Virus record (IMG/VR): IMGVR_UViG_3300026224_000012
Length of the DNA stretch: 14,132 nt
Strand: one strand, 5' to 3'
Source: a virus
Lineage: Duplodnaviria; Heunggongvirae; Uroviricota; Caudoviricetes
In this document: piece after piece, positions 7,244-12,949 of the stretch
Layout of the letters: the number at the start of each line of letters is the position of its first letter
Position numbering within the stretch: position 1 is the first letter of the stretch
Notes under the pieces: model-generated
What the model saw: only the letters and a program-made list of their open reading frames with translations
What the model was told of the DNA's origin: nothing
Database searches by the model: none
Made by a program: the position numbers and the translations under genes

Positions 7244-8125
7244 ATGCTTAAAAAAGCGACAATTAATATAAAAACTGATGAGATAAATCTCTATCAAGGA
7301 GACTGTCTTGAGTTGCTAACCATGATGGACGATTCTTCTGTAGATCTCATCGTTACTTCACCACCGTATGCAGATCAACGAAAGAGGACTTATGGTGGCA
7401 TTGCCCCTGACAAGTATGTTGACTGGTTTTCACCTATAGCGGAGCAACTGCTACGGGTTCTTAAGCCTTCAGGCTCCTTTGTGCTTAACATTAAAGAGAA
7501 GGTAGTGAATGGCGAAAGACATACATATGTTTTAGAGCTTATTCTTAAAATGCGAGAGCTGGGTTGGCTGTGGACAGAAGAATATATCTGGCATAAGAAG
7601 AATTCATTCCCTGGTAAATGGCCTAATAGATTCAGAGATTCTTGGGAACGCTGTCTGCACTTTACAAAAAACAGAAAGTTTGCAATGTACCAAGAAGCGG
7701 TTATGGTTCCTGTGGGGGACTGGAAGAATGAGAGGCTAAAAAAATTAAGCTCGCGGGACATGATGAGGGATGAGTCGCGAGTTGGTAGTGGGTTCGGAAA
7801 GAACATTTCAAACTGGCAGGGAAGAGAAATGGCATACCCGACGAATGTGCTGCACATGGCAACTGAATGTGGTAACAAAGGCCACAGTGCAGCATTCCCC
7901 GAAGTTCTTCCTGAATGGTTTATTCGTTTGTTTACAACAGAAGGCGATGTTGTTTTGGATCCGTTTGCAGGCTCAGGCACTACACTTGTGGCGGCATCTC
8001 GCCTGTCCAGAAAGTCAGTAGGTTTTGAATTGCTTGATGAACACTGCCAAGTAGCTAAAGAACGACTTGGGCTGGAAAGAAAAAGGTTAACTAGCGTAGT
8101 AAGTTACAGCAAAAAAGCTGAATAG
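7244..8125 (+). CDS. Orphan beta-class DNA amino-methyltransferase (N4-cytosine or N6-adenine)
   Basis: ORF is open from 7202; ATG at 7244 has SD GGAG at 9-nt spacing. Motif IV DLIVTSPPYA precedes motif I VVLDPFAGSGTT, which is the beta-class order; SPPY suggests N4-cytosine. GC content is visibly lower than in flanking phage genes. Confidence 0.85.
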   Translation: MLKKATINIKTDEINLYQGDCLELLTMMDDSSVDLIVTSPPYADQRKRTYGGIAPDKYVDWFSPIAEQLLRVLKPSGSFVLNIKEKVVNGERHTYVLELILKMRELGWLWTEEYIWHKKNSFPGKWPNRFRDSWERCLHFTKNRKFAMYQEAVMVPVGDWKNERLKKLSSRDMMRDESRVGSGFGKNISNWQGREMAYPTNVLHMATECGNKGHSAAFPEVLPEWFIRLFTTEGDVVLDPFAGSGTTLVAASRLSRKSVGFELLDEHCQVAKERLGLERKRLTSVVSYSKKAE

Positions 8126-8177
8126 GTTTCTGGTTTATGGTAGTTTTCTCCTTGGTTAACCAAAGAAGGAAAATACA

Positions 8178-8459
8178 ATGTCAGGAACATGCATCATTGA
8201 AGGATGTGGTAGACATGCAGATAAAATTATCGGTGTGCGTCTGAGACGTGAACTGGATAATTTATCTGCAATTTGGGCCCACAATACTAACGCTTATTTG
8301 TGTGATGAACATGCAGCTATGGGATTTGATGTAGAAGTAACATTTACCCCTCGGGATGACAAGACCATTAGAACAGTTGTAAGCAACGGTGATGGTGATC
8401 CAGTTGTTCGACTGAAAGCAATCACCAAACCTGTCAACCCAGATGGAACGGAAGACTGA
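8178..8459 (+). CDS. Small zinc-ribbon-like hypothetical protein (93 aa)
   Basis: SD AAGGAAAA before the ATG. Carries CxxxxC...H (CIIEGCGRH) and CDEH motifs. AT-rich codon usage like the adjacent methyltransferase; followed directly by a terminator. Confidence 0.6.
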   Translation: MSGTCIIEGCGRHADKIIGVRLRRELDNLSAIWAHNTNAYLCDEHAAMGFDVEVTFTPRDDKTIRTVVSNGDGDPVVRLKAITKPVNPDGTED

Positions 8460-8477
8460 GGTTAGTATATTTATTAT

Positions 8478-8502
8478 AAAACCGCCTTCGGGCGGTTTTT
8501 TT
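8478..8502. terminator. Rho-independent terminator, potentially bidirectional
   Basis: AAAA-ACCGCC-TTCG-GGCGGT-TTTTTTT: a perfect 6-bp GC stem with a TTCG loop, flanked by an A-run and a T-run. Confidence 0.7.
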
Positions 8503-8528: not shown

Positions 8529-8806
8529 ATGGTAAAGATAATGGGAATCATAGAAATTATTGCTAGCGGTATTGTTGTGCTGGTTGCAGCCGCACTCAGC
8601 GTTTTTTACTGGCAATGTTCGTGGTTGTGGAAAAGTAGCAGAGAAAGCCAAACAGCAGCGCACCGAAGAGAACGCAGTGGCGATCGTTGCAGCAATATCT
8701 GGGCTTCACTGCCGGGGCTGGTTATGGTCAGTTTGAGCATAAAGTTGACAGCCTGATTGCAAAATTCAAAGAAGCTGGCGGAACGGTCAGAGAGATTGAG
8801 GTATGA
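8529..8806 (+). pseudogene. Chimeric ORF or remnant: unrelated N-terminal segment joined to the vestigial 3' end of a lambda R-type endolysin gene, with a 1-nt frameshift
   Basis: 8683-8806 closely matches the 3' end of lambda R as I recall it (RCSNIWASLPG, then after one missing base AGYGQFEHK.DSLIAKFKEAGGTVREI.V*), including the terminal ATGA overlap with Rz. 8529-8682 encodes an unrelated hydrophobic N-terminus in the same frame. The intact track ORF ends at 8756. Confidence 0.45.
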
Positions 8807-9246
8807 GCAGAGTCACCGCGATTATCTCCGTTCTGGTTATCTGCATCATCGTCTGCCTGTCATGGGCGGTTAATCATTACCGTGATAACGCCATCACCTA
8901 CAAAAAGCAGCGCGATAAGGCCGCATCCATTATCGCTGACATGCAGAAACGTCAAAGTAATGTAGCTGAACTCGATGCCAGATATACAAAGGAGCTTGCT
9001 GATGCTAACGCGACTATCGAAAGTCTTCGTGCTGATGTTTCTGCTGGTCGTAAGTGGCTGCACGTCAAAGCAGTCTGTCCGGACATGCATAAAACCACCG
9101 CCGCCTCCGGCGTGGATGATGCTTCCAGCCCCAGACTTACTGACACCGCTCAACGGGATTATTTCGTTCTCAGAGAGCGCATCGAAACCATAACTAACCA
9201 ATTGAATGGCCTGCAAGAGTATGTGAGATCACAGTGTTCATATTAG
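8803..9246 (+). CDS. Rz: i-spanin Rz (inner-membrane spanin subunit)
   Basis: N-terminus [33 protein letters not shown] is near-identical to lambda Rz as I recall it. ATGA overlap with the upstream frame. Confidence 0.9.
9002..9193 (+). CDS. Rz1: o-spanin Rz1 (outer-membrane lipoprotein), embedded in the +1 frame of Rz
   Basis: SD AAGGAG (8989-8994) 7 nt before the ATG at 9002. Lipobox LLVVSGC followed by the proline-rich KPPPPPAW...TPLNGII, matching lambda Rz1. Confidence 0.85.
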
Positions 9247-9284
9247 AAAAGTCTTATCATGAGATTTTTGTATATGGATGCATT

Positions 9285-9659
9285 ATGTCTCAATACGCGC
9301 GCGCCGCTTTAATCGCTTATCATTTGGTTGCTGATAGCTCAATGCCTCCTCGTGATGTATGGGATACAGCTGTCGCAGAGGTTACAGAAAGCGAATCGTC
9401 AAGAAAGAAGATATGCCCAAGGGCAACATTTCTCGCCCTAGCGGATAGCGGTTACCTCAAGAATGTAAAACCACTGCATGGGGAGAAAAAGGGCGGTAAG
9501 TTGTACCAAAGGGCAATTGAAGTTGCGAATCTGATTCTTGATTTACCCGGAATCAGTAAAGCTGAATTGGTTGATAAAACTGGTTACAAAGACAGGCAAG
9601 GGTCTTATGACCTGATTCTCGCTCTGTATCATCATGAGCAACTCCAGCGACCGGAATAA
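9285..9659 (+). CDS. Hypothetical protein (124 aa), AT-rich cargo gene
   Basis: ORF track 9234-9659; first ATG at 9285. No family recognised. Lower GC than the flanking structural genes. Confidence 0.6.
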   Translation: MSQYARAALIAYHLVADSSMPPRDVWDTAVAEVTESESSRKKICPRATFLALADSGYLKNVKPLHGEKKGGKLYQRAIEVANLILDLPGISKAELVDKTGYKDRQGSYDLILALYHHEQLQRPE

Positions 9660-9776
9660 TTATCCCGGCATCAGTGTCAAAAATAGGCAGTGATACGCTA
9701 TTTTCCTGAAAATACTTTACTAACATTTTATGAGAATTATCCTAGTAAAGTGTTTATTTAAAAGGAGTTTGGGTTT

Positions 9777-9980
9777 ATGAAAATTCTCTGGGTCATCAGT
9801 CTTTTGTGTAGTGCTATTGGATTTATTGAAGGAATCCTCGGGGTTTTCGGTGCTCAGAGTGCTCCACAACAGGCTGCAGGTGCAGCAATGGGAGTAGCAT
9901 GGGCAGTTATTCCATATTGTATTTGTCGTGCTATCCAACAATTGCGCCCTCGAGAAGTCATTATTAAAAAGGAAGAATGA
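9777..9980 (+). CDS. Small membrane protein (67 aa, two predicted transmembrane helices)
   Basis: SD AAGGAG (9762-9767) 9 nt before the ATG. Two hydrophobic helices separated by a short polar loop, with a charged C-terminus KKEE. Confidence 0.55.
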   Translation: MKILWVISLLCSAIGFIEGILGVFGAQSAPQQAAGAAMGVAWAVIPYCICRAIQQLRPREVIIKKEE

Positions 9981-10045
9981 CCAGATCTTATCCGGTGTTT
10001 TTTCTGTCTAAGCCTCGCGTCGCGGGGCTTTTTATTGGAGCCAGC

Positions 10046-10396
10046 ATGCCACCACGAACCCCAAAAGCCTGCCGCGTTCGCGGCTGCCGCCAAACCACCA
10101 CTGACCCGTCAGGCTACTGCGAAAGCCACAAAAGCGAAGGCTGGAAACAATACAAGCCAGGACAATCCCGTCACCAGCGCGGCTACGGTTCGAAGTGGGA
10201 TGTTATCCGCGCGCGCGTGCTGAAGCGTGACAAAGGCCTGTGTCAGTTGTGCCTGCGTGTCGGTGTGGTGCGTGAGGCGAAAACCGTTGACCACATCATC
10301 CCTAAAGCGCATGGCGGCACTGATGCAGACTGCAATCTGCAGAGCCTGTGCTGGCCGTGTCATAAGACGAAGACGGCCCGTGAACGACTGAAGTGA
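10046..10396 (+). CDS. Phage-associated HNH endonuclease (terminase accessory type)
   Basis: ORF is open from 9977, but the ATG at 10046 has SD GGAG at 5-nt spacing and gives a typical 116-aa HNH protein (CRVRGC...C.SH ... DHIIPKAHGGTD..NLQSLCWPCHKTKT). Sits immediately upstream of the terminase genes. Confidence 0.85.
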   Translation: MPPRTPKACRVRGCRQTTTDPSGYCESHKSEGWKQYKPGQSRHQRGYGSKWDVIRARVLKRDKGLCQLCLRVGVVREAKTVDHIIPKAHGGTDADCNLQSLCWPCHKTKTARERLK

Positions 10397-10483: not shown

Positions 10484-10522
10484 ATACCCGCGAAAAATGA
10501 AATTTAACCAGGAGTGCCGCAT

Positions 10523-11008
10523 ATGGCTGGAACGGCGGGGCGTTCCGGGCGTCGCCCCAAGCCAACGGCGCGCAAGGCGCTGGCCGGAAACCCCGGCAAG
10601 CGAGCCCTGAATAAAGATGAACCTGTTTTTACGCCCATCAAAGGTGTTGAGCCACCGGAGTGGTTCGCTGAAGAAGATCTCCCTCTCGCCACGATCATGT
10701 GGCAACTGACAACCAAAGAACTCTGCGGTCAGGGCCTGCTGTGCGTGACTGACCTGGCGGTACTTGAGCGGTGGTGTGTGGCCTATGAATTCTGGCGACG
10801 TGCCGTGAAAAATATTGCCAGACAGGGCAACACCATCACCGGTGCAATGGGCGGCATGGTCAAAAATCCGGAGCTGACCGCCAAAAAAGAACAGGAGTCC
10901 GAGATGAGCAGCACGGGGGCAATGCTCGGACTCGACCCCAGCAGCCGCCAGCGTCTGATTGGCCTGGCGGGGAAGAAGAAAGCCACTAACCCGTTTCTGA
11001 CAATCTGA
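10523..11008 (+). CDS. Terminase small subunit (P27 family)
   Basis: SD AGGAG 8 nt before the ATG at 10523 (track ORF starts at GTG 10514). N-terminus [27 protein letters not shown] is typical of P27-type small terminase subunits. Confidence 0.85.
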
Positions 11009-12766: not shown

Positions 12767-12949
12767 ATGATCATGCTGATTCTCGCGCCTCTGGTGGGCG
12801 TGCTGGGGGCGCTTTTGCTGGCGTATGGTGCCTGGCTGATTTATCCCCCGGCGGGGTTTGTTGTTGCCGGGGCGTTGTGTCTGTTCTGGTCGTGGCTGGT
12901 GGCGCGATATCTCGACCGTACACAGTCGTCTGTCGGCGGAGGTAAATAG
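12767..12949 (+). CDS. Small hydrophobic protein (60 aa) between terminase and portal
   Basis: SD GAGGT 5 nt before the ATG. Two hydrophobic helices. Its stop overlaps the portal GTG start. Confidence 0.5.

What the first reader, a model, noticed from the sequence alone, without database searches (positions are those of the whole stretch)
9234..9990. Second AT-rich module after the spanins: a 124-aa cytosolic protein plus a 67-aa two-helix membrane peptide
The slot between Rz/Rz1 and the packaging genes is a classic lambdoid moron site (bor occupies it in lambda). Here it holds two unrecognised genes of lower GC with their own strong SD sequences. The small two-TM peptide resembles small membrane toxins or superinfection-exclusion effectors, and pairing it with a soluble partner suggests a sensor/effector abortive-infection or exclusion system.
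Basis: inference. Interest (0 to 1): 0.5.

Follow-up and report, generated by a model that had tools for sequence, protein, structure and literature searches.

The report
Two unlinked prophage accessory genes
The two small genes between the lysis and packaging genes of this E. coli/Shigella prophage are real, but they are two separately inherited accessory genes and not a paired defence system: a soluble protein of unknown function (DUF6979), and a self-contained promoter-gene-terminator cassette for a tiny membrane protein that also occurs alone in many other phages and mobile elements.

Summary
Window 9285-9659 encodes a 124-aa soluble protein and 9777-9980 a 67-aa two-helix membrane protein. 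GC is 41.7% here against 51.3% for the window. The genes lie between the spanins (Rz/Rz1) and HNH-cos-terminase of an SfI/e14-like prophage. The same pair is in published phage SfI, where the 67-aa gene is unannotated.

The sensor/effector pairing is not supported. The 124-aa protein is Pfam DUF6979. It follows Rz in 248 of 5,426 complete E. coli genomes, and only 52 of these also carry the peptide gene. Peptide homologues (73-82% identical) occur in about 60 other prophage contigs without DUF6979. They also occur in tail modules and integrative islands.

The peptide gene is a textbook moron. It has a conserved TTTACT-N16-TATCCT promoter-like element, a strong Shine-Dalgarno sequence (SD), the ORF and a conserved intrinsic terminator. 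It belongs to a large uncharacterised family (893 clusters) with an invariant SAPQQAA..AAMG.AWAVIPYC motif.

DUF6979 folds confidently into a two-lobed all-helical protein with only weak helix-turn-helix resemblance. It has no fixed partner, and in Flavobacteriia it lies within restriction/defence islands.

Functions remain inferred. The peptide is most likely a lysogen-expressed inner-membrane protein, possibly a superinfection-exclusion factor. DUF6979 is probably a late-expressed nucleic-acid-binding accessory protein. Interest is moderate.

The parts
8803..9246 (+). Rz i-spanin gene, with a lipobox-bearing Rz1-like ORF embedded at 8975-9193. It is the upstream anchor of the slot, and the DUF6979 gene travels with it.
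   Evidence: PF03245 E=3.5e-39 and phrog_13 E=4.8e-70. Rz at 75-100% identity lies immediately upstream of DUF6979 in nearly all E. coli-type loci.
9285..9659 (+). DUF6979-family gene encoding a 124-aa soluble all-helical protein. It starts 38 nt after the Rz stop codon and has only a weak SD (GGA). It is probably read as part of the late operon.
   Evidence: PF22399 at 96.1 bits (cutoff 27) and phrog_5039 E=2.5e-68. RefSeq calls it 'DUF6979 family protein'. AF2 gives pLDDT 92.9, pTM 0.87 and 7 helices. dN/dS is 0.20-0.27. No promoter-like site was found upstream.
9716..9743 (+). Conserved sigma-70-type promoter-like element of the peptide cassette: -35 TTTACT (9716-9721), a 16-nt spacer, and -10 TATCCT (9738-9743). 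It sits 33 nt upstream of the ATG.
   Evidence: The element matches only 8 of 12 consensus positions, so the scan missed it. The hexamers and the 16-nt spacing are kept in 56 of 61 distinct flank variants, while the spacer and flanks diverge and synonymous sites in the ORF are saturated. The variants seen are TATCAT and TTTACA, both closer to consensus.
9763..9767 (+). Shine-Dalgarno sequence AGGAG, 9 nt before the peptide ATG.
   Evidence: Read directly from the sequence. GGAG is conserved in most of the aligned cassettes.
9777..9980 (+). Gene for the 67-aa two-TM inner-membrane hairpin (phrog_12304). It carries the invariant motif SAPQQAAGAAMG.AWAVIPYC (periplasmic loop plus TM2) and glycine-zipper-like spacing in both helices.
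   Evidence: phrog_12304 E=2.1e-44, with no Pfam, NCBIfam or PADLOC family. AF2 hairpin with pLDDT 86.6. Alignments. dN/dS is about 0.07-0.10 where it could be estimated. The profile search found 893 clusters at E<=0.01.
10010..10037 (+). Intrinsic terminator of the peptide cassette: AAGCCTCGCG-TCG-CGGGGCTT followed by TTTATT.
   Evidence: Best terminator-like site in the region, with 9 pairs of which 6 are G-C. The hairpin GCCTCGC-N-GCGGGGC plus a T-run is present 26-45 nt after the stop in 51 of 61 flank variants. One variant restores a perfect pair (GCGAGGC), and other lineages have a different hairpin at the same place.
10046..10396 (+). HNH endonuclease gene, the downstream anchor of the slot. 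It is followed by cos and the small terminase subunit (10514-11008).
   Evidence: PF01844 E=1.1e-14. The RefSeq start corresponds to 10046. This ATG is the cos-F primer site of phage SfI, whose cos lies between HNH and terS.

Best explanation
The interval holds two independent accessory genes at the right end of an SfI/e14-like lambdoid prophage. It is not a two-gene system.

(1) The DUF6979 gene.
- Shown: it is part of the mosaic block that carries Rz/Rz1. It has no promoter of its own. It encodes a compact soluble two-lobed all-helical protein.
- Inferred: it is transcribed with the late operon, and it binds nucleic acid or another universal ligand through helix-turn-helix-like lobes. The family occurs in bacteria and archaea, often as a lone gene in variable or defence islands, so it cannot be specific to the enterobacterial envelope.

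(2) The 67-aa gene.
- Shown: it is an autonomous cassette of about 0.33 kb, consisting of the promoter-like element TTTACT-N16-TATCCT, an AGGAG SD, 67 codons and an intrinsic terminator. In this lineage it sits between DUF6979 and HNH-cos. It occurs on its own at the same pre-cos position in dozens of other Enterobacterales prophages, and at other accessory positions in other mobile elements.
- Shown by prediction and by domain fusions: the product is an N-in/C-in helical hairpin with a short invariant periplasmic loop.
- Inferred: it is expressed from the repressed prophage, inserts in the inner membrane, self-associates or binds a larger membrane component through its small-residue faces, and benefits the lysogen. 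The most likely benefit is interference with genome entry by superinfecting phages, as the HK97 gp15 moron does.
For: Independence:
- In complete E. coli genomes, DUF6979 is present in 248 and the peptide cassette in 52.
- In IMG/VR, 29 of 48 DUF6979 loci lack the peptide and 61 of 80 peptide loci lack DUF6979.
- The Salmonella prophages examined lack the peptide.
- Rahnella, Yersinia, Morganella, Pseudomonas and Edwardsiella elements lack DUF6979 next to the peptide.
- One contig has a frameshifted DUF6979 next to an intact peptide cassette.
- Neither gene has a conserved neighbour apart from Rz (for DUF6979) and the small terminase subunit (for the peptide).

Cassette:
- Homology between lineages starts about 100 nt before the ATG and ends just after the terminator.
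- The hexamers, their spacing and their distance to the ATG are conserved in 56 of 61 flank variants, and the terminator in 51 of 61.
- GC is lower than in the flanks. These are the criteria for morons given in PMC3594210.

Protein:
- AF2 predicts a hairpin and hydropathy agrees.
- Zn-ribbon fusions at either end place both termini in the cytoplasm.
- The family is large and always found in mobile contexts. This includes the slot between the tail chaperone and the tape measure in Pseudomonas prophages, which is where the HK97 gene 15 moron sits.

DUF6979:
- The Pfam match is clear and the model is confident.
- There are 518 representatives at E<=0.001, spanning archaea and many bacterial phyla.
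- In phages it sits in late-operon positions: after Rz, or directly after a Q-like antiterminator.
- In Flavobacteriia it lies next to McrBC-like, type I/IIG R-M and PDC-S14 genes.

The pair exists in the viable phage SfI.
Against: - No expression or phenotype data exist for either gene, and no paper mentions either family.
- The promoter-like element is weak by consensus (8 of 12) and was not called by the scan. Its conservation could partly reflect shared ancestry.
- The exclusion function rests only on analogy of organisation, size, location and genomic slot. The peptide has no sequence relationship to HK97 gp15/YebO, T4 Imm or any annotated Sie family in PHROGs or Pfam.
- Within E. coli the peptide is only ever seen next to DUF6979 (52 of 52). 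A lineage-specific functional interaction therefore cannot be excluded.
Confidence: 0.55

Rival explanations
1. One reading: the soluble 124-aa protein senses infection and the 67-aa membrane peptide is its effector, or the two are a toxin with its partner. Together they would form a two-gene abortive-infection or exclusion system.
For: The genes are adjacent and co-oriented. Both are AT-rich relative to the flanks. In E. coli the peptide is always found next to DUF6979 (52 of 52 genomes). DUF6979 relatives lie in defence islands in Flavobacteriia.
Against: The pairing is confined to one nearly identical lineage (at least 94% identity). Everywhere else each gene occurs without the other. The transcription signals are separate, with a promoter-like element and terminator around the peptide only. 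One contig has a frameshifted DUF6979 and an intact peptide cassette. There is no significant PADLOC hit for either protein.
Confidence: 0.06
2. The 67-aa protein is a lysis accessory, such as a pinholin-like holin, an antiholin or a lysis-timing factor. It would be expressed late by read-through from the Q-dependent late promoter.
For: It has a class II holin-like architecture: about 67 aa, two TMDs rich in Gly and Ala, and a charged C-terminal tail. It sits at the end of the lysis cassette in most prophage loci. TM2 is only moderately hydrophobic.
Against: It has its own promoter-like element and terminator. It lies after the spanins and not before the endolysin. It co-occurs with at least three unrelated holin types that are already complete: Phage_holin_8 with holin_3_7, lambda-family holin, and holin_2_3. 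It is also found in tail modules and integrative islands that have no lysis genes. It matches no holin Pfam or PHROG family, and it has no dual-start motif (sequence).
Confidence: 0.12
3. The 67-aa protein is a small membrane toxin of the type I toxin or addiction kind. It would stabilise the prophage or kill infected cells by depolarising the membrane.
For: It is a small hydrophobic hairpin with glycine-zipper-like motifs and a conserved polar residue in TM1, features seen in pore-forming peptides. It is carried on many mobile elements.
Against: There is no Rfam match and no convergent promoter or terminator that would suggest an antisense RNA. No conserved adjacent antitoxin-like ORF exists. 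The putative leader is short (about 26 nt) with a strong SD, unlike the translationally locked type I toxin mRNAs (own knowledge). A toxin expressed from a constitutive-looking promoter would not be tolerated.
Confidence: 0.07
4. DUF6979 is the functionally important gene of the interval: a late-expressed counter-defence or defence accessory that acts on DNA, for example by modulating restriction of McrBC type. The peptide would be an unrelated passenger.
For: In Flavobacteriia DUF6979 sits directly upstream of McrB-like AAA_5 genes (a 4-nt overlap in L165) and next to type I/IIG R-M genes and PDC-S14 candidates. Its lobes are HTH-like. In phages it occupies late-operon positions. The family is near-universal in taxonomy, which points to a universal target such as DNA.
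Against: Most neighbourhoods are housekeeping genes and no partner is fixed. There are no informative domain fusions. It matches no PADLOC model. The structural similarity to DNA binders is weak.
Confidence: 0.2

Closest known systems
HK97 gene 15 moron (gp15, a superinfection-exclusion inner-membrane protein; Cumby et al. 2012, summarised in PMC3594210)
   Same: Both are small inner-membrane proteins encoded by a self-contained insert with its own promoter and terminator and a deviating GC content, inside a late operon of a lambdoid prophage. Distant homologues of the 67-aa protein in Pseudomonas prophages occupy the same slot as gene 15, between the tail chaperone and the tape measure.
   Different: There is no sequence relationship: no YebO/gp15 family hit in Pfam or PHROGs. 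The peptide has two TM helices and a different conserved motif. In this window the slot is at the pre-cos end and not in the tail operon. No exclusion phenotype has been shown.
Lambda bor and other morons between Rz and cos
   Same: They occupy the same genomic slot, between the spanins and cos-terminase, and they are accessory genes not needed for lytic growth (own knowledge of lambda; for the moron concept).
   Different: Bor is an outer-membrane lipoprotein on the opposite strand. Here the product is an inner-membrane hairpin on the late-operon strand. There is no homology.
Class II holins / pinholins (e.g. phage 21 S21-68)
   Same: Similar size, two TM helices with small-residue faces, a charged C-terminus, and proximity to lysis genes.
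   Different: There is no family match. The gene lies downstream of the spanins with its own promoter-like element and terminator. It is present alongside complete holin sets and also away from any lysis genes.
Pfam PF22399 (DUF6979)
   Same: The 124-aa protein is a full-length member: 96 bits, profile positions 1-126 of 127. It shares the nearly invariant W26, K42, C44-P45, F49, L52 and G56.
   Different: The enterobacterial prophage clade has RQGSYD(L/I) where most members have NGQMDVV, and it lacks the second Cys of the common CPRxAFLGLC motif. No member of the family has a known function.
Winged-helix / HTH DNA-binding domains (MarR, TrpR, paired-type transposase domains, AbiEi N-terminal domain)
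   Different: The scores are low and cover only half of the protein. No sequence-profile link to any HTH family was found. DNA binding is untested.

Membership tests
Phage moron (Juhala/Hendrix 2000; criteria as given in PMC3594210) | An insert present between genes that are adjacent, or differently filled, in related phage genomes | tested here: met
   For the 67-aa cassette: 196 E. coli genomes and 29 IMG/VR loci have Rz-DUF6979 without it. The slot instead holds a KilA-N gene or small unrelated ORFs. For DUF6979: it is present after Rz in only 248 of 5,426 genomes.
Phage moron | Base composition different from that of the surrounding genes | tested here: met
   GC is 41.7% for 9234-9990, against 48.9% for Rz, 59.0% for HNH and 51.3% for the window.
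Phage moron | Own promoter | tested here: inconclusive
   The peptide cassette has TTTACT-N16-TATCCT conserved in 56 of 61 variants at a fixed distance from the ATG. It matches only 8 of 12 consensus positions, was not called by the scan, and has no transcript data. DUF6979 has no candidate promoter, so that gene fails this criterion.
Phage moron | Own terminator | tested here: met
   The hairpin plus T-run at 10010-10037 is the best site in the region and is conserved in 51 of 61 variants, with a compensating change and with replacement hairpins in other lineages. No convincing terminator follows DUF6979.
Phage moron | Expression from the repressed prophage | not testable with these tools
   This needs RNA-seq, 5'-RACE or reporter fusions in a lysogen.
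Two-gene abortive-infection / toxin-partner system | The two genes are conserved neighbours across lineages | tested here: not met
   The pair is found only in one lineage of at least 94% identity. Each gene is otherwise found alone.
Known anti-phage defence systems (PADLOC-DB v2) | Significant match to a defence-protein model | tested here: not met
   DUF6979 had no hit. The peptide hit only PycC at E=0.026, 12 bits.
Holins (class II / pinholin) | Membership of a holin sequence family; a gene placed with the endolysin; a dual-start motif | tested here: not met
   No holin Pfam or PHROG hit at E<=1. The gene lies after the spanins with its own transcription signals. There is a single Met start (sequence). 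Only the general architecture (two TMDs and a charged tail) matches.
HK97 gp15 / YebO family | Sequence homology to YebO/gp15 | tested here: not met
   No such family appeared among the Pfam, NCBIfam or PHROG hits at E<=1.
HK97 gp15-like superinfection exclusion (function) | Blocks genome entry by superinfecting phage when expressed from the prophage | not testable with these tools
   This requires plating and DNA-entry assays.
Type I toxin-antitoxin | Overlapping or adjacent antisense RNA controlling a small hydrophobic toxin | tested here: inconclusive
   No Rfam family matched and no convergent promoter-like site lies over the gene. Unknown sRNAs cannot be excluded.
Pfam PF22399 DUF6979 | Score above the gathering threshold over the full profile | tested here: met
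   96.1 bits against 27, profile positions 1-126 of 127.
HTH / winged-helix DNA-binding proteins (for DUF6979) | Three-helix HTH fold with a recognition helix; DNA binding | tested here: inconclusive

The most novel reading that the evidence does not exclude
The 67-aa protein may define a large, so far unnamed family of two-TM proteins borne on mobile elements. The family has about 900 clusters across Proteobacteria, an invariant periplasmic-loop/TM2 motif SAPQ[QE]AA-x-AAMG-x-A[WF]AVIPYC, and occasional fusions to cytoplasmic Zn-ribbons. The novel reading is that this is a new class of superinfection-exclusion or genome-entry-blocking factor.

In cos phages the cassette sits about 0.5 kb from the genome end that enters the cell first (by my knowledge of lambda polarity). 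Its own promoter could therefore make it the first phage gene expressed on infection as well as in the lysogen.
Probability: 0.2. Interest if true: 0.6.

Novelty: new member of a known kind. Interest (0 to 1): 0.35.

Why it matters
The result corrects a tempting mis-annotation: adjacency alone would have filed these two genes as a new two-gene defence system.

It also delimits a clean, portable 0.33-kb expression cassette for a strongly conserved small membrane protein. This protein is unannotated even in the reference genome of the serotype-converting Shigella phage SfI, and it belongs to a large uncharacterised family that always travels on phages and other mobile elements. Small prophage membrane proteins of this kind have repeatedly turned out to control phage entry or envelope physiology, so the family is a cheap and well-defined target for plating and topology experiments.

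DUF6979 is a confidently folded orphan family that recurs in phage late operons and beside restriction systems. It is a reasonable candidate for defence or counter-defence screens. Neither point overturns current understanding.

Tried and rejected
- Sequence families for the peptide: Pfam gave only T4SS_pilin at E=0.059, below cutoff. NCBIfam and PADLOC gave only noise.
- PDB sequence searches with single sequences and with profiles found nothing significant for either protein. The best DUF6979 hits were MGMT at E=1.1 and caspase-4 at E=0.33, which are short motif coincidences.
- Domain fusions of DUF6979 were uninformative. A scan of 94 members for recurrent weak Pfam hits found none.
- I looked for a conserved partner of either gene by clustering neighbours in about 200 loci. 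None was found beyond Rz for DUF6979 and the small terminase subunit for the peptide.
- Literature searches for DUF6979, the accessions and the PHROG ids returned no papers.
- Rfam and tRNA scans of the window were empty.
- I considered that the conserved hairpin after the peptide gene might be part of cos. I rejected this because it accompanies the peptide in phages with unrelated terminases and in non-cos contexts.
- I considered the 141-aa GTG-start form of the first ORF. I rejected it on the family alignment and the RefSeq start.
Full report
**What is there.**
The window is the late region of a lambdoid prophage of E. coli/Shigella. It holds replication and Nin-type genes, a Q-like antiterminator region, two holin-like ORFs, a GH19-type endolysin, a DNA methyltransferase insert, Rz/Rz1, the two genes of the finding, an HNH endonuclease, the small and large terminase subunits, and the portal. 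The 801 bases around the finding are 99.4-99.5% identical to prophages in 52 complete E. coli genomes, where RefSeq annotates 'lysis protein | DUF6979 family protein | hypothetical protein'. The same pair is present in the published, viable serotype-converting Shigella phage SfI. There the first gene is 'hypothetical protein' gp63 and the 67-aa gene is not annotated at all. In SfI the order is lysis cassette, gp63, (peptide), HNH, cos. The pair therefore lies about 0.5-1.2 kb from the right end of the packaged chromosome.

**Check of the observation.**
The first ORF is listed mechanically as 9234-9659 (GTG, 141 aa). The second ORF is 9777-9980 (67 aa).

- GC is 41.7% across 9234-9990, against 51.3% for the window and 59.0% for the HNH gene that follows.
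- Pairwise Nei-Gojobori estimates show purifying selection on both genes. For the peptide, dN/dS is about 0.07-0.10 in the two comparisons where dS could be estimated, and synonymous sites are saturated in the rest. For DUF6979, dN/dS is 0.20-0.27.
- AlphaFold2 models are confident. The 124-aa protein scores pLDDT 92.9 and pTM 0.87, with seven helices in two lobes joined by a tiny two-stranded bridge. The peptide scores pLDDT 86.6 and forms a hairpin of helices 2-24 and 29-55.
- Only the peptide gene has a strong SD (AGGAG, 9 nt upstream). The DUF6979 gene has only GGA and starts 38 nt after the Rz stop codon.

**Are the two genes a pair? No.**
In complete E. coli genomes the DUF6979 gene is found in 248 of 5,426 genomes at 80-100% DNA identity. 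The peptide cassette is found in only 52, all at least 95% identical and all of the same lineage.

In IMG/VR, 29 of 48 DUF6979 loci have Rz-DUF6979 at the same fixed spacing but no peptide. The following slot holds a KilA-N gene or small unrelated ORFs, ahead of lambda-type, P22-type or HK97-type terminases. Conversely, 61 of 80 peptide loci (73-82% protein identity) have no DUF6979. One further locus has a 45%-identical DUF6979 2.3 kb away.

The Salmonella prophages examined carry DUF6979 after Rz, followed by KilA-N, with no peptide ORF called in between. The peptide occurs without DUF6979 in several other settings:

- Rahnella prophages carry it after Rz and a different 74-aa ORF.
- A Yersinia prophage and Edwardsiella phage Edno5 carry it in the tail module.
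- Morganella carries it in a primase-bearing island.
- Pseudomonas prophages carry a distant homologue between the tail chaperone and the tape measure.
- Other distant homologues sit beside integrases and transposases.

Clustering of neighbours found no conserved partner for the peptide other than the downstream small terminase subunit, and none for DUF6979 other than Rz. In one contig a 1-nt deletion frameshifts DUF6979 while the peptide cassette is 100% intact. A sequencing error in that G-run cannot be excluded.

**The peptide gene is a self-contained cassette.**
An alignment of 16 diverse loci shows that similarity begins about 100 nt upstream of the ATG and stops just after a hairpin plus T-run. 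Across 61 distinct flank variants:

- The hexamers TTTACT and TATCCT are separated by exactly 16 nt in 56 variants and lie 30-33 nt from the ATG.
- The only recurrent substitutions are TATCAT and TTTACA, both closer to the sigma-70 consensus. The spacer sequence varies.
- The terminator GCCTCGC-loop-GCGGGGC-T(n) is present in 51 of 61 variants. One variant (GCGAGGC) restores a perfect pair. Rahnella-type cassettes have a different hairpin at the same place.

In the window these elements are at 9716-9743 (promoter-like), 9763-9767 (SD) and 10010-10037 (terminator, the best-scoring site in the region). The consensus scan did not call the promoter, because it matches only 8 of 12 positions. Promoter function is therefore an inference from conservation. 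Lower GC, presence or absence between the same flanking genes, and own promoter and terminator are the criteria for a moron as set out by Cumby, Davidson and Maxwell (PMC3594210).

**The peptide family.**
A profile search finds 893 clusters at E<=0.01. These include 56-60-aa forms in Pseudomonas and other Proteobacteria, and fusions to CxxC...CxxC zinc-ribbon segments at either the N- or the C-terminus. A zinc ribbon on either end argues that both termini are cytoplasmic and that the short loop is periplasmic.

The loop and second helix carry the family's invariant motif SAPQ[QE]AA-x-AAMG-x-A[WF]AVIPYC. Both helices have small-residue (G/A-xxx-G/A) faces, and helix 1 has a conserved polar residue (E/Q/D). 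No Pfam, NCBIfam, PADLOC or annotated PHROG family matches, and no solved structure is related. The fold search is uninformative for such a small hairpin.

**DUF6979.**
The 124-aa protein is a full-length member of PF22399. An exhaustive profile search finds 518 representatives at E<=0.001. A genome scan places relatives in Methanococcoides and Methanoregulaceae, Paenibacillus, Clostridia, Flavobacteriia, Acidobacteriota, Planctomycetota and Proteobacteria. Nearly invariant residues are W26, K42, C44-P45, F49, L52 and G56, at the start of helix 4.

Structural and profile comparisons give little:

- One flavobacterial member hits the AbiEi winged-helix region (E=2.9e-5).
- Profile searches give nothing else.

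Immediate neighbours are heterogeneous and mostly housekeeping. They include a sprinkling of restriction and defence genes: type I and IIG methyltransferases, DUF4357/RAMA proteins matching PADLOC PDC-S14, AbiV, DndB and GajB-like helicases. In four loci a McrB-like AAA_5 gene lies one or two genes downstream (immediately downstream in three of them), and in L165 the two genes overlap by 4 nt.

In phages DUF6979 occupies late-operon positions. It follows Rz in E. coli and Salmonella, and it directly follows a Q-like antiterminator in another prophage group. A family shared by archaea and bacteria cannot have an enterobacterial envelope component as its target. This again argues against a role as the peptide's dedicated partner.

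**Most likely mechanism.**

- Shown: there are two separately inherited genes. The peptide cassette is delimited by its own conserved signals. The peptide is a predicted N-in/C-in hairpin. DUF6979 is a soluble helical protein.
- Inferred for the peptide: the cassette is transcribed in the lysogen, and by read-through late in infection. The peptide inserts in the inner membrane and acts by binding itself or a larger membrane component. The most plausible benefit is exclusion of superinfecting phages at the genome-entry step. This rests on analogy with the HK97 gene 15 moron, which shares the organisation, product type and, for the Pseudomonas homologues, the exact genomic slot. I put this specific function at about 0.25-0.3.
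- Inferred for DUF6979: it is a late-expressed nucleic-acid-binding accessory protein, possibly connected with restriction or anti-restriction (about 0.2-0.4).

**Rivals.**

- The sensor/effector pair is contradicted by the co-occurrence data.
- A holin or antiholin role fits the architecture and the neighbourhood. It does not fit the separate promoter-like element and terminator, the position after the spanins, the coexistence with several complete holin sets, or the occurrence away from lysis genes.
- A type I-like toxin is not supported by any antisense signal, but it cannot be excluded without experiments.

**Novelty.**
Neither gene is functionally characterised and no paper mentions either family. 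However, the pair is already in public phage and genome records. DUF6979 is a curated Pfam family, and the peptide is a further example of a well-known kind of element, a moron encoding a small membrane protein. The main value of the follow-up is the negative result on pairing, the precise delimitation of the cassette, and the recognition of a large, strongly conserved family of membrane peptides that is always found on mobile elements.

Noticed in passing
window 8682-8806: This is a 3' remnant (about 125 nt) of a GH24 lambda-R-type lysozyme gene. It is in frame with a stop codon that overlaps the Rz ATG. Similarity to the SfI/E. coli ST80 prophage lineage starts here. It looks like a recombination scar showing that the present holin/GH19-endolysin/methylase segment replaced the front of an older lysis cassette.
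   Followed up: partly
window 7202-8499: This is the first AT-rich insert (GC 42.8%), lying between the endolysin and Rz. It holds an N6/N4 DNA methyltransferase (PF01555, E=8.8e-44), then a 93-aa Cys/His-containing ORF (8178-8459) with no family hit in Pfam, PHROGs, NCBIfam or PADLOC, then a strong terminator at 8478-8499.
   Followed up: partly
window 12767-12949: A 60-aa hydrophobic ORF lies between the large terminase subunit and the portal. It corresponds to the gene annotated ymfR (e14) in the related E. coli prophage, and appears to be another small membrane protein inside the packaging module.
   Followed up: no
L216 (phage SfI NC_027339) 4001-4201 = record 37695-37895: The 67-aa gene is 100% identical in the reference genome of phage SfI but is not annotated there.
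   Followed up: yes
L165 4071-9710; L198 2059-10077; L150 402-3593: In Flavobacteriia the DUF6979 gene sits directly upstream of, or one gene away from, large McrB-like AAA_5 proteins (one of them with an EVE domain), with McrC in L165. These are flanked by PD-(D/E)XK and Eco57I-type enzymes. This may be an accessory of type IV restriction systems.
   Followed up: partly
L277 4001-4183; L278 4001-4183: Distant 60-aa homologues of the peptide lie between the tail chaperone and the tape-measure gene of Pseudomonas prophages. This is the same slot as the HK97 gene 15 moron. They sit next to ORFs that carry signal-peptide or lipoprotein signals.
   Followed up: partly
L218-L221 6001-6560: In Morganella the 72-aa homologue overlaps by 4 nt a downstream 114-aa ORF with a signal peptide. 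Both lie inside an island that carries a primase (Zn_Ribbon_Prim/Toprim_3/DUF927) and a ProQ-like gene. This is a different, possibly operonic, context.
   Followed up: no
L054 2683-3202: A 1-nt deletion in a G-run frameshifts the DUF6979 gene, while the adjacent peptide cassette is identical to the window. It could be a real pseudogene or a homopolymer sequencing error.
   Followed up: partly
several peptide loci, about 100-150 nt upstream of the ATG (e.g. L006 5851-5960, L066 4851-4900; alignment A6): Upstream of the conserved promoter-like element some lineages carry short palindromes (CAGGCATTCA-C-TGAATGCCTG; TATCCCCTATAGGGGATA) and a GATAAT box. These could be operators, a second promoter, or the terminator of the preceding unit. 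They are absent or degenerate in the window.
   Followed up: no
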